This document shows, one piece after another, positions 6,001-9,000 of a stretch of 13,916 nt of DNA (position 1 is its first letter; each line of letters opens with the position of its first letter). The position numbers are program-made. This DNA is from a virus (Duplodnaviria; Heunggongvirae; Uroviricota; Caudoviricetes). The DNA lies in the IMG/VR virus record IMGVR_UViG_2529292908_000015, positions 1-13,916 of that record; one strand, written 5' to 3'.

Positions 6001-9000
6001 CTTGTCGAAAAAGCCAGCAAGCTGAAAGACAGGTATTCACCGCCACCAGCGCGTTTAACGTACTGGTCCGATTTCAGGCATAAAAAACCCGCCTGACGGC
6101 GGATTTAAGCTATGTGGCGAAGTAACCACTCTTAACATGGTATTTATTTTTTTACGATCGTAAAGCATTCTGGAAAAATTTTTAAGACTTACATCATGCT
6201 TTCATAACTTGAGCGCCGTATATAGCCACTGAACGGGAGCTGGTAAATAAGATTCCCCTCAGACACGAACAGCCATCTAAGTATGGAATTGCAAGACCAA
6301 TGAAACTTGATGTTTCTTAAGCAATCTTCAAACAACAAACAGCCTCGTTACAGTTGTCAAGCTATCTTGACGCCATTAGAAACGATGATGAAAATAGACA
6401 CTCCTACACACAGAGGATATATCATGGAAAACTTTGCAAATAAGTTAAAATCTCACGCAGAGCATGTTGCAAACATGGGGTGCTTCTGTAATACAGAGGA
6501 AACAACCAAACAGGCATTAATCATGCCTTTTCTAGATATTTTAGGCTTTACTCCATACGACCCACGAAAAGTGAAGGCAGAGTATAGCGCAGACTTCCCA
6601 GGGGTAAAGATTAACGAACGAGTTGATTACGCTTTATTTTGTCATGATGTTCCCGTGATGTTTATTGAAGCAAAATCATTTTCAGAAAAAATTGACAATC
6701 ATTGCCCACAGCTTTCTAGATATTTCAACTCTACCCCAGAAGTCACCATTTCTGCTATAACAAATGGAATTGAATGGCGTTTTTTTACGGATCTAAAACA
6801 AAAAACATTATGGATTCGTCTCCTTTCTTAAAATTAAGAATGGACTCACTTAACGATTCAGATATTTCACAGTTATTCCGCTTCAGATATGACAAATTTA
6901 AGCCAGAGGCATTAAGGACGCTTGCAGAGGAAAGCGTCTATCTAAACGCATTCACAAAAACCATAAGCTCAAGTCTTAGAGAGGTTGATCCTGAATTTGT
7001 CAGATATGTTGCCAGTCGTTCAAATATCGAGCGTCAACTAAACCAGCGATTCCTTGAATCTGTCACGCCACTGGTCAAACAAGCTGTAAAACGAGCAGTA
7101 AGTGCCATGGTGGTTTCTGGCCTTTCAACACAACCACCTACAGAATCTGCAGAGGATGTGGAAAAGTCTTCTGTAGATACCGATATCGTCAATGAAGATA
7201 ACCCCAATATAATAACCACAAAGAAAGAATTAGAACTTTTCGAAAGAATAAAGCAAATCATTCAAACAGAAGATAATATTGAATACAAAGATACCGAATC
7301 ATACTTTGGAATTCTTTTAGATGGAAAAAGTAATAGATGGATTTTAAGATTTTACGACAAAAAATCATCCTTTATCCTGCTACCGATATCGTTCAACGAA
7401 ATTCAATTAAACGAAATAAAAAGGGCTAGACTGGAAACTGATGGTCGAAAAATCCACATAACAAATCCAGAAGACATACTGCGTATATCTGGATTAATTC
7501 TAGATGCGTTTGAGTATGTAAAAAACGATGACAATTTCAGGAGAGGGACAAAAACAACTCTCTCAGAAAACATCGAATAAATTAGACTATAAACAACACC
7601 CAACTTACATGTCCGGTGTTCCAATCCCGACGCAAATATTTCTAATGTGTGGGAATATAGACCCGGACAATGTATCTAGTCAAGCACCTACATAATTCGT
7701 TCTACATATCTGTCCATCTCCAGCCGGATATCAAGCATCATCAAAATACCATCAATCACCCCTTCGGCTTTCTGAAGACGTTTACCAATGCAGGTGTCAG
7801 AGCATCTATGCTTACGCGCCAGACTCATAAAAGTCATTCCAATGACATAATAATCCACCAATAAATCATGCAAATCACTGTTGTTTTTTTTCAAGCGGGC
7901 CATGCATCCACAAACGATCATCGCGTCATCGTCGCAACATTGCGGACGAGACTTAACTTTTGAAGAGATTAGTCCTTTAAATCCAGCAGCAATCGGTGAC
8001 CAAGTCACATCCTCATGATTGTTTGCAACCCATGCTCCCCAGCGTTCGAGAACCATCTGAATATCACGCATCAACTTTCTCCACAAAATCAGGACAGCAC
8101 ACCAATCGCCAGCGCGCGATCGATAAAACGAAATATCAGCTCCAGTTGGGAACCATACTTCTCTTCAAATGCCACGGTATCCGCATGCAGTCCGTCATGG
8201 TGTTTTCTGCACAAAGGCAACACAAAAAGGTCATGCGCTTTTGTACCCATTCCACCCTGACCATGACCAATCAGGTGATGAGGATCGTCGGCTGGCTTAC
8301 CACAACATGCACACGGCTGCGTCTTAACCCAGCGCGTGTACTTTTCATTAACCCAGCGACGACGTTTTGGGCGTAACATAAAAGACTCCGGCGACTCCGG
8401 ATCCACTTTCAGCGCCAGCACCTTTTTCGCCTTATCCTGGATGATGCTGGTGGCAGTAACCGAAGGCACAAGGTCACTTTCCCGGGTGACAGACGGCACA
8501 ACAGGCTTCGGTAATCTCAGTGCCTTACGGGCTGCACTTTCCGGTAAGGCATCCGCCAGGTCATTACGAATCAGCCACCAGCACAGTTCCGGCATTGTCA
8601 CAACGTGACTGTCATCAAAACCAAGATCACGGCGCACAACAGACAACACCCAGCGGGCACAGTTATCCGTTGCCATTGCTTCCAGCCGTTCCGTGAACTG
8701 GTCACGGAGAAGATTGTCACAGTGCCAGCACAGACGGATTGCACCCGGCGCGTGTCGCATTGTGGTCATGTTCTCGCTGTGCCATCCGGAATGAGGCCAC
8801 TGACAGCCCTTTTCACGAAGTAACCAGCTTTCAAGACATTCCACCCCACCAGTACAACGAATAACTGCCTCATTGCGGAACACGGCCCGAACGGCAGGAT
8901 CATCCGCCAGCGGTTGTGATGCTGCCGGAACGGCACCGCTGGCGAAAGATGAATAACGTTCCGGCTCAGGCTCCAGCAGGACACGCCCCTGCATAAACAG

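What the first reader, a model, noticed from the sequence alone, without database searches (positions are those of the whole stretch)
6774..6831. The nuclease reading frame switches inside a T7 / A-rich homopolymer tract
The first ORF ends 58 nt after the second begins, in a different frame, across cgTTTTTTTacggatctAAAACAAAAAACatt. The second ORF has no convincing ribosome-binding site, so a single ancestral gene is more likely than two coupled genes. A one-base change in either run would fuse them. This could be a sequencing error, an inactivating mutation, or a slippage-based phase-variable switch, which is a known way to control toxic defence genes.
Basis: seen in the sequence. Interest (0 to 1): 0.55.

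Follow-up and report, generated by a model that had tools for sequence, protein, structure and literature searches.

The report
Homopolymer miscall splits a prophage nuclease gene
The two overlapping reading frames are one ordinary 385-residue prophage nuclease gene, broken because this draft assembly has six A's where every close relative has seven, and the pattern of differences points to a sequencing error rather than a biological switch.

Summary
ORF 6307/6424..6831 and ORF 6774..7580 overlap by 58 nt in different frames, across T7 (6780-6786) and AAAACAAAAAA (6796-6805).

It is one gene. Near-identical E. coli prophages carry a single 1158-nt CDS (385 aa) with an N-terminal HsdR-N type PD-(D/E)xK nuclease domain. 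The 120 best-scoring homologues listed (of 1465) are single proteins, nearly all 378-391 aa. The only lesion is A7->A6 at 6800-6805. T7 is unchanged in all E. coli relatives compared.

The window is 100% identical to the E. coli DEC6C draft contig AIFX01000054.1. Against its relatives it carries five private 1-bp deletions, all in runs that are 6-7 (once 8) bases long in the relatives: 841-846, 6174-6178, 6800-6805, 9115-9120 and 10447-10451. The last one also splits the phage replicative helicase. Across 8.3 kb there is no private substitution. An independent contig (L019) differs by 1 SNP plus exactly four of those gaps.

This is the signature of homopolymer under-calling, which I put at about 0.75. 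A real recent inactivating slip in a decayed prophage remains possible, at about 0.2. Phase variation and programmed frameshifting are not supported. The A-run is not conserved across species, peptides specific to the A6 allele occur on only two contigs, there is no slippery heptamer, and there is no downstream RNA structure.

The parts
6424..7580 (+). Full extent of the gene. It is a single 1158-nt, 385-aa CDS in relatives; here it is 1157 nt and out of frame after codon 127.
   Evidence: annotate one CDS (WP_032188582.1) at the equivalent position. One search shows the window differs from it inside the gene only by the missing A. One search gives a full-length match to phrog_4225 (residues 1-369, 4.5e-147).
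6424..6831 (+). ORF1: N-terminal fragment of 135 aa. It consists of residues 1-127 of the intact protein plus 8 out-of-frame residues (TLWIRLLS) and a stop. It contains the PD-(D/E)xK core (D68, E82, K84).
   Evidence: HSDR_N 9.1e-14 and HSDR_N_2 2.6e-8; alignment to the intact protein. D68, E82 and K84 are invariant in 117 homologues.
6774..7580 (+). ORF2 as listed mechanically (268 aa). Only the part from Asn128 (codon 6804-6806) onward is homologous. The first 10 residues (MAFFYGSKTK) are out-of-frame read-through of the ORF1 region.
   Evidence: It has no Pfam hit on its own.
6800..6805 (.). The lesion: an A6 run where all 14 close E. coli relatives and the 78%-identical homologue have A7 (codons CAA AAA AAC = Q K N).
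6780..6786 (.). T7 run (CGT TTT TTT = R F F). It is unchanged in all E. coli relatives compared and is not involved in the break.
6412..6417 (+). AGAGGA ribosome-binding site, 6 nt upstream of the true start ATG at 6424.
   Evidence: Read. The start agrees with the annotated CDS.
6367..6395 (+). Sigma-70-like promoter candidate (TTGACG-17-GAAAAT) upstream of the gene. This is a consensus match only.
   Evidence: The number of sites in the region is not above the shuffle expectation.
6174..6178 (.). Second private homopolymer deletion (intergenic). A5T5 here, against A6T5 in eleven relatives and, as the aligner placed the gap, A5T6 in three. L019, one of those three, reads A6T5 on direct inspection.
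9115..9120 (.). Third private homopolymer deletion (intergenic): A6 here, A7 in the four nearest relatives (L004, L005, L007, L019). The other six covering relatives are divergent at this spot and their gaps are placed beside the run.
   Evidence: The Logan contig L107 ends exactly at this run.
10447..10451 (.). Fourth private homopolymer deletion: T5 here, T6 in relatives. It splits the prophage replicative DnaB-like helicase (9383..10782, - strand) into fragments of 113 aa and about 326 aa.
   Evidence: The intact helicase is 466 aa.
841..846 (.). Fifth private homopolymer deletion: T6 here, T7 or T8 in all four relatives that cover this region.

Best explanation
The two ORFs are halves of one gene. 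That gene encodes a 385-aa prophage protein with an N-terminal HsdR-N type PD-(D/E)xK nuclease domain, a helical middle region, an acidic linker and a C-terminal domain of unknown fold. In this record (E. coli DEC6C draft contig AIFX01000054.1) the poly-A run encoding Gln-Lys-Asn is one base short, A6 instead of A7. This throws the frame by one base after Lys127. The most likely cause is homopolymer under-calling in the reads or consensus of this assembly, so the split is an artefact of the record and the strain probably carries the intact gene. Shown: the gene is single and intact elsewhere; the lesion is A7->A6; the same record carries four more deletions of the same kind and no private substitutions. 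Inferred: the cause is technical rather than mutational.
For: (1) Three near-identical E. coli prophages carry one 1158-nt CDS with A7. The exact intact protein is recorded on 177 contigs.
(2) The window is 100% identical to DEC6C AIFX01000054.1.
(3) Every 1-bp difference in length between the window and its >=99%-identical relatives is a deletion in the window, in a run that is 6-7 bases long in the relatives (8 in one relative at 841): positions 841, 6174, 6800, 9115 and 10447.
(4) In 5612-13916, where at least 2 relatives cover every position, there are 0 private substitutions but 4 private homopolymer deletions.
(5) L019, an independent IMG/VR contig, differs from window 5633-13916 by 1 SNP plus exactly those 4 gaps.
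(6) As a natural control, relatives that differ from each other by 53-161 substitutions show almost no homopolymer length changes.
(7) One of the deletions breaks the phage replicative helicase. The 326-aa helicase fragment and the A6-specific 57-aa peptide exist only in DEC6C among about 15 billion proteins.
(8) The Logan assembly of run SRR094133 has 0 substitutions against window 9115-13916, shares the T5 helicase allele, carries two further A6->A5 deletions and ends exactly at the A-run at 9115. This is behaviour expected of homopolymer-noisy reads. Another evidently noisy data set (SRR30949767, with about 6-7 homopolymer deletions in 3.5 kb) reproduces the same T5 call in a different lineage.
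Against: The 4.1-kb chromosomal flank on the same contig (yecD-aspS-nudB-yebC) has no indel and keeps all 7 runs of >=6 bases, including an A7. The assembly is therefore not uniformly error-ridden, although 0 of 7 is compatible with the roughly 17% per-run rate seen in the prophage. The prophage looks truly defective: its methylase is fused to the 3' part of tail gene J at 4878-4883, so real decay mutations would be tolerated. The A7->A6 change also occurs in one unrelated data set (SRR22858753), so the run can change length by some route. I could not see reads or platform metadata. That the DECA collection drafts were 454-based is my recollection only, because the paper (PMC3370608) is not held.
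Confidence: 0.75

Rival explanations
1. A real, recent inactivating mutation. Replication slippage shortened A7 to A6 in a prophage remnant that is no longer under selection, making the nuclease gene a pseudogene. The split helicase would be a second product of the same decay.
For: The prophage appears to have lost its lysis, head and most tail genes through a methylase-J' junction with 6-bp microhomology. The gene is dispensable and is really broken elsewhere. A +T insertion at gene position 305 is shared by many Stx-prophage assemblies (L009-L016, L018), and a C3->C2 deletion occurs in a metagenome contig. A7->A6 recurs on the +T background in SRR22858753. The core flank on the same contig shows no homopolymer errors.
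Against: There are four to five private homopolymer deletions against zero private substitutions in 8.3 kb, and 1 SNP against 4 gaps relative to L019. From my knowledge of E. coli mutation-accumulation studies, single-base substitutions outnumber short indels by roughly 10 to 1, so this spectrum is very unlikely for natural mutation. All five changes go in the same direction. The methylase-J' junction product is itself unique to this assembly.
Confidence: 0.2
2. A phase-variable contingency switch. The A7 run is a selected hypermutable tract that turns a potentially toxic prophage nuclease on (A7) and off (A6 or A8) within populations.
For: Two independent occurrences of A6 at the same run (the window, and SRR22858753). 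The T7 and A7 runs are both retained in a homologue only 78% identical at the DNA level. Phase-variable restriction-modification genes are known in other bacteria (my knowledge).
Against: A6-specific peptides occur on only 2 contigs, whereas the intact 385-aa variants are recorded on 177, 45, 41, 16 and further contigs. One of the two A6 cases sits in a gene already dead from the +T frameshift, so it cannot be acting as a switch. No A8 allele was seen. Across 78 species-level loci the run is A7 in 33, A5 in 22 and A2-A4 in 22. It tracks codon usage for (Q/E)-K-N rather than being conserved. Seven A's is short for a contingency tract (my knowledge). The window's other four deletions lie in places where a switch makes no sense, such as intergenic DNA and the helicase.
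Confidence: 0.03
3. A functional two-part arrangement. Either the full-length protein is restored by -1 ribosomal frameshifting or transcriptional slippage on the A run, or two separate polypeptides are made by termination-reinitiation at ATG 6810 or 6840.
For: A -1 slip of tRNA-Lys from AAA (6802-6804) onto 6801-6803 would regenerate exactly the wild-type sequence ...KQK-NIMD (derived). ATG 6810 lies 21 nt before the ORF1 stop codon.
Against: A programmed shift would be conserved, but in 76 of 78 species-level loci the region lies in one uninterrupted ORF of at least 380 codons, and the 120 best-scoring homologues listed are single proteins, nearly all 378-391 aa. The site A-AAA-ACA is not a canonical X-XXY-YYZ heptamer. 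The 80 nt downstream fold no better than shuffled sequence (z = -0.83). ORF2 has no ribosome-binding site. Six A's is below the length at which transcriptional slippage is efficient (my knowledge).
Confidence: 0.02

Closest known systems
Homopolymer-length miscalls in pyrosequencing, ion-semiconductor or early nanopore assemblies that create false frameshifts
   Same: The deletions are single bases, confined to runs of >=6 identical bases, all in one direction, scattered over coding and non-coding DNA, and unaccompanied by substitutions. They are absent from an almost identical independent contig. Noisier assemblies of related reads show more of the same.
   Different: The sequencing platform and the reads could not be inspected. 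The adjacent 4.1 kb of core genome shows none.
phrog_4225 'endonuclease', the proteins of about 380-390 aa that NCBI names 'type I restriction endonuclease / HsdR N-terminal domain-containing protein' (e.g. WP_032188582.1)
   Same: The reconstructed protein is identical to WP_032188582.1 and matches the PHROG over its full length. It shares the invariant D68/E82/K84 nuclease core.
   Different: The copy in this record is split after residue 127.
HsdR, the R subunit of type I restriction-modification enzymes (e.g. EcoR124I HsdR)
   Same: N-terminal PD-(D/E)xK nuclease domain (Pfam HSDR_N and HSDR_N_2). There are weak fold matches to EcoR124I HsdR and BpuSI.
   Different: It has no SF2 translocase or helicase domains and is 385 aa rather than about 1000. 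It scores 17 bits against the NCBIfam HsdR equivalog, whose cut-off is 729. There are no adjacent hsdM or hsdS genes. The database name is therefore misleading.
Simple-sequence contingency loci, such as phase-variable restriction-modification genes with homopolymer tracts in Haemophilus, Neisseria and Helicobacter
   Same: A frameshift inside a mononucleotide run within a restriction-like gene.
   Different: There is no ON/OFF polymorphism at appreciable frequency, the tract is short and not conserved, and no longer variants exist.
Lambda rexAB-type lysogen-expressed morons (positional analogy only)
   Same: In Citrobacter and Morganella prophages the homologue sits 8-22 bp downstream of, and co-oriented with, the cI-like repressor gene (HTH_3 + Peptidase_S24). 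This is the position rexAB occupies in lambda (the rex position is from my knowledge).
   Different: There is no sequence relationship. In this window the gene occupies another moron slot, downstream of Q and antisense to the late operon. No defence function has been tested.

Membership tests
Sequencing/assembly homopolymer artefact | The length difference is private to one assembly and absent from near-identical independent sequences | tested here: met
   All 14 relatives have A7. L019 differs by 1 SNP plus the 4 homopolymer gaps. The A6-specific 57-aa peptide occurs only in DEC6C.
Sequencing/assembly homopolymer artefact | Several further indels of the same kind and direction in the same record, without matching substitutions | tested here: met
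   Five private 1-bp deletions, all in runs of >=6 bases, and 0 private substitutions in 8.3 kb. Natural relatives show 53-161 substitutions with almost no run-length change.
Sequencing/assembly homopolymer artefact | Raw reads disagree with, or are ambiguous about, the consensus run length | not testable with these tools
   No read access. The only indirect hint is that Logan contig L107 (0 SNPs against the window) breaks exactly at the A-run at 9115 and has two more A6->A5 calls.
Type I restriction enzyme R subunit (HsdR) | N-terminal PD-(D/E)xK nuclease domain | tested here: met
   HSDR_N 9.1e-14 and HSDR_N_2 2.6e-8. D68, E82 and K84 are invariant.
Type I restriction enzyme R subunit (HsdR) | SF2 ATP-dependent translocase domains and a length of about 1000 aa | tested here: not met
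   No Pfam domain beyond residue 128. NCBIfam PRK11448 scores 17 bits against a cut-off of 729. The listed family members are nearly all 378-391 aa.
Type I restriction enzyme R subunit (HsdR) | Adjacent hsdM and hsdS partner genes | tested here: not met
   The neighbours are the Q antiterminator, a 65-aa hypothetical protein and a phage N6_N4 methylase on the other strand. In other genera the neighbour is a cI-like repressor.
Phase-variable simple-sequence contingency locus | Frequent ON/OFF tract-length polymorphism among closely related genomes | tested here: not met
   A6-specific peptides occur on 2 contigs, against hundreds with intact protein. No A8 was found.
Phase-variable simple-sequence contingency locus | The tract is maintained by selection across homologues | tested here: not met
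   A7 in 33 of 78 loci, A5 in 22, A2-A4 in 22. The pattern follows AAA/AAG codon choice.
Programmed -1 ribosomal frameshift | The two-frame architecture is conserved in homologues | tested here: not met
   The region lies in one uninterrupted ORF of >=380 codons in 76 of 78 loci and the gene is a single CDS in all annotated relatives.
Programmed -1 ribosomal frameshift | An X-XXY-YYZ slippery heptamer plus a downstream stimulatory structure | tested here: not met
   The zero-frame sequence is CAA AAA ACA, which has no YYZ. The downstream 80 nt fold with z = -0.83.
phrog_4225 / solitary HsdR-N nuclease family of about 385 aa | Full-length collinear match of one polypeptide | tested here: inconclusive
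   The intact relative matches residues 1-369 at 4.5e-147. The window copy matches only as two pieces. Whether the strain's real gene is intact depends on the artefact question.

The most novel reading that the evidence does not exclude
The A7 run is a low-frequency natural slippage hotspot that repeatedly switches off a lysogen-expressed prophage nuclease. It would then be a weak contingency locus in an uncharacterised candidate anti-phage gene. The two independent A6 alleles (DEC6C and SRR22858753) would both be real.
Probability: 0.04. Interest if true: 0.4.

Novelty: not a real feature. Interest (0 to 1): 0.07.

Why it matters
Its main value is as a caution. A frameshift in a homopolymer inside a restriction-like gene invites a phase-variation story. 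Here comparison with relatives shows that the same record has four more single-base homopolymer deletions and no private substitutions, so the split most likely does not exist in the organism. If it were real, it would be an ordinary pseudogene in a decayed prophage. The gene family is the more interesting object. It is a conserved solitary HsdR-N nuclease of about 385 aa with an unassigned C-terminal domain. It is carried in moron positions of lambdoid prophages and is absent from PADLOC. It could be tested as a candidate superinfection-exclusion or defence gene.

Tried and rejected
1. Treating T7 as the lesion was rejected: T7 is identical in all E. coli relatives compared.
2. I looked for the two-ORF layout in homologues. 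The 256-aa ORF2 product is on 42 contigs, but those contigs carry different lesions with A7 intact: +T at position 305, or C3->C2 at position 282. This is therefore not a conserved arrangement.
3. I tried to obtain the sequencing platform from the DECA genome announcement (PMC3370608). The paper is not held, and two literature searches gave nothing.
4. I used the adjacent core genes as an internal error-rate control. They show 0 indels in 4.1 kb and 7 of 7 runs intact. The sample is too small to contradict the roughly 17% per-run rate in the prophage, but it does count against a uniformly bad assembly.
5. I looked for other assemblies with the same methylase-J' junction to find clonal siblings. 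The junction protein exists only in DEC6C.
6. Structure-based annotation of the C-terminal domain gave little. The AlphaFold2 model has mean pLDDT 69, with the C-terminal domain at about 85. There is no PDB match at E<=1e-3, only a weak YdhG/DUF1801-like hit. PDB sequence search, PADLOC and NCBIfam gave nothing useful.
7. An Rfam or RNA-element explanation was not pursued, because homology explains the region fully as coding sequence.
8. A literature search for the Pfam domains found no description of this solitary family.
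Full report
OBSERVATION

The window contains ORF 6307..6831 (+) and ORF 6774..7580 (+), in different frames and overlapping by 58 nt. The sequence between them reads GGCG-TTTTTTT-ACGGATCT-AAAA-C-AAAAAA-CATT, with T7 at 6780-6786 and A6 at 6800-6805. ORF2 is in the -1 frame relative to ORF1. None of its in-frame ATGs (6774, 6810, 6840) is preceded by a Shine-Dalgarno-like sequence.

ONE GENE, AND WHERE IT BREAKS

Megablast against complete E. coli genomes found three prophages 99.6-99.9% identical over 6100-7700. In each, the region is annotated as one 1158-nt CDS, WP_032188582.1, named 'type I restriction endonuclease' (385 aa).

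- The CDS starts at the equivalent of ATG 6424, which is preceded by AGAGGA at 6412-6417.
- Inside the gene the window differs from these relatives by exactly one base: the run is A7 in them and A6 here. T7 is identical.
- At the protein level, ORF1 equals residues 1-127 followed by TLWIRLLS and a stop. ORF2 equals MAFFYGSKTK followed by residues 128-385. The intact reading is CTA AAA CAA AAA AAC ATT ATG = L K Q K N I M.
- A second group of E. coli homologues, 78% identical at the DNA level, is also a single CDS with T7 and A7.

WHAT THE GENE IS

Residues 25-128 match Pfam HSDR_N (9e-14) and HSDR_N_2. D68, E82 and K84, the PD-(D/E)xK core, are invariant in 117 homologues, and all three lie in ORF1.

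- The remaining roughly 250 residues have no Pfam, PADLOC, NCBIfam or PDB sequence match.
- PHROGs has a full-length family, phrog_4225 'endonuclease' (residues 1-369, 4.5e-147).
- A search of 5.8 billion proteins gave 1465 homologues. The best 120 listed are single proteins, nearly all 378-391 aa.
- An AlphaFold2 model (mean pLDDT 69) shows four parts: an N-terminal nuclease domain, a helical middle region, a disordered acidic linker (about 233-255), and a confident C-terminal alpha/beta domain (260-372). The C-terminal domain has no significant PDB fold match; the weak hits are YdhG/DUF1801-like, HsdR and BpuSI.
- Despite its database name, it is not a type I R subunit. It has no translocase domains, scores 17 bits against a 729-bit cut-off for the HsdR equivalog, and has no hsdM/hsdS neighbours.

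The gene sits in a lambdoid, Stx/phiP27-like prophage. It lies between the Q antiterminator (7688..8086, - strand) and a phage DNA methylase, on the opposite strand. A pR'-like promoter at 7683..7654 (- strand) would read antisense through it. In Citrobacter and Morganella prophages the homologue lies directly downstream of, and co-oriented with, the cI-like repressor. That is the position rexAB occupies in lambda (my knowledge). A lysogen-expressed exclusion or defence role is therefore a reasonable inference, but it was not tested.

WHY THE FRAME IS BROKEN HERE

The window is 100% identical to positions 192-14107 of L008, which is E. coli DEC6C draft contig AIFX01000054.1 of GCA_000249635.2.

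I listed every indel between the window and its nearest relatives.
- Over 5722-13003 (99.4% identity to L004 and L005) there are four 1-bp indels. All are deletions in the window, and all fall in runs that are 6-7 bases long in the relatives:
  - A6->A5 at 6174-6178 (intergenic).
  - A7->A6 at 6800-6805 (this finding).
  - A7->A6 at 9115-9120 (intergenic).
  - T6->T5 at 10447-10451.
- The last deletion splits the prophage's 466-aa replicative DnaB-like helicase into 113-aa and roughly 326-aa ORFs.
- In the left half there is a fifth: T6 at 841-846, against T7 or T8 in all four relatives.

I then used a panel of 19 related loci and counted window bases shared with no relative. In 5612-13916, where every position is covered by at least 2 relatives, there are 0 private substitutions against 4 private homopolymer deletions.

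The closest relative is an independent IMG/VR contig (L019). It differs from window 5633-13916 by one substitution (at 9911) and exactly those four gaps.

As a control, the natural relatives differ among themselves by 53-161 substitutions with almost no homopolymer length change. From my knowledge of E. coli mutation-accumulation work, substitutions outnumber short indels about tenfold. A spectrum of 4-5 same-direction homopolymer deletions with 0-1 substitutions is therefore far from what mutation produces. It is exactly what homopolymer under-calling produces.

SUPPORTING DETAILS

- The A6-specific 57-aa peptide and the 326-aa helicase fragment exist only in DEC6C among about 15 billion proteins.
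- The 113-aa helicase fragment specific to the T5 allele also occurs in three Logan assemblies:
  - SRR094133 (L107) has 0 substitutions against window 9115-13916, shares T5, carries two additional A6->A5 deletions and ends exactly at the A-run at 9115. I infer it is the same or a sibling strain read on a homopolymer-noisy platform.
  - SRR30949767 (L108) belongs to another lineage, has about 6-7 homopolymer deletions in 3.5 kb, and still reproduces the same T5 call.
  - ERR2098938 (L109) also shares it.
- The same runs therefore fail repeatedly in noisy data.

EVIDENCE ON THE OTHER SIDE

- The 4.1 kb of core genome next to the prophage on the same contig has no indel, and all 7 runs of >=6 bases are intact.
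- The prophage seems truly defective. Its methylase is fused to the 3' part of J at 4878-4883 with 6-bp microhomology, although this junction is itself unique to this assembly.
- The gene is really broken in other lineages. A +T insertion at gene position 305 is shared by many Stx-prophage assemblies, and a C3->C2 deletion occurs in one metagenome.
- A7->A6 occurs once more, on the +T background, in SRR22858753.

A real recent slippage mutation therefore cannot be excluded. I give it about 0.2.

PHASE VARIATION AND PROGRAMMED FRAMESHIFTING

- A6-specific peptides are on 2 contigs. The intact 385-aa variants are on 177, 45, 41, 16 and further contigs.
- One of the two A6 cases is in an already dead gene.
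- No A8 allele was found in E. coli relatives, in IMG/VR or in species representatives.
- In 78 species-level loci the peptide WRFFTDL..KN.MD lies in one uninterrupted ORF of at least 380 codons in 76. The run at the junction is A7 in 33, A5 in 22 and A2-A4 in 22, so it follows codon usage for (Q/E)-K-N rather than being conserved.
- The zero-frame context CAA AAA ACA is not an X-XXY-YYZ heptamer. The 80 nt downstream fold no better than shuffles (z = -0.83).
- A -1 slip of tRNA-Lys on the run would regenerate the wild-type sequence, so trace read-through is conceivable. Nothing suggests that it is programmed.

VERDICT

The 'single ancestral gene' reading is right. An ordinary pseudogenising slip comes second (0.2), and regulatory readings are unlikely (<=0.05 together). 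Interest is low. The uncharacterised nuclease family itself is noted separately as a possible defence candidate.

Noticed in passing
window 9383..10782 (- strand), run at 10447-10451: The prophage replicative DnaB-like helicase (466 aa in relatives) is split into 113-aa and roughly 326-aa ORFs by a T6->T5 change. The same T5 call recurs in three Logan assemblies, two of which are evidently homopolymer-noisy.
   Followed up: yes
window 4878-4883: The phage DNA methylase gene (truncated to 261 aa) is joined to the 3' part of tail-tip gene J (268 aa) through a 6-bp overlap, removing the lysis, head and most tail genes. The junction protein exists only in the DEC6C assembly. It is either a strain-specific prophage deletion or a chimeric join.
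   Followed up: partly
L009-L016 and L018 (e.g. L009:4729-5887); equivalent to window position 6728: Many Stx-encoding prophage assemblies (NCBI GCA_0210806xx/0210812xx and several Logan runs) share a +T insertion at gene position 305 (TTCAACTCT -> TTCAATCTCT). It splits the same nuclease gene into 116-aa and 256-aa ORFs. This is not in a homopolymer and is seen in many independent assemblies, so it is a real pseudogene allele in an STEC phage lineage.
   Followed up: partly
L105 (Logan SRR22858753), position 802: A second, independent A7->A6 at the same run, on the +T pseudogene background. The contig is otherwise identical to L009 over 2287 nt. The platform is unknown.
   Followed up: partly
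L110-L115 (Citrobacter koseri and Morganella morganii prophages), gene at 6001-7155: Homologues of the 385-aa nuclease sit 8-22 bp downstream of, and co-oriented with, the cI-like repressor (HTH_3 + Peptidase_S24), a rexAB-like position. The family has no PADLOC model, no solved relative and an unassigned C-terminal domain. It is a candidate undescribed prophage defence or exclusion gene.
   Followed up: partly
window 7683..7654 (- strand): A strong sigma-70-like site (TTGACT-18-TATATT, 10 of 12) lies immediately downstream of Q, probably the late promoter pR'. Late transcription would run antisense through the nuclease gene.
   Followed up: no
window 572-577: A C-run inside a YkgJ-family gene differs among complete genomes: C6 here, and CCCTCCCC, C9 and C7 in relatives. 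The gene is annotated as frameshifted in several of them. It is a truly variable or generally error-prone tract.
   Followed up: no
window ~12058 and ~12103: In-frame 6-bp and 12-bp length differences in the replication-initiator gene relative to L004 and L005. The 12-bp one is a copy-number change of a GTAATCTCTGTA repeat and is probably iteron-like. Both are shared with L019 and L007, so they are real lineage markers.
   Followed up: partly
L072 (Pasteurella oralis) and L049 (Xenorhabdus yunnanensis): These are the only two of 78 species-representative homologues whose ORF across the junction is short (162 and 282 codons). They may be independent disruptions or truncated matches.
   Followed up: no
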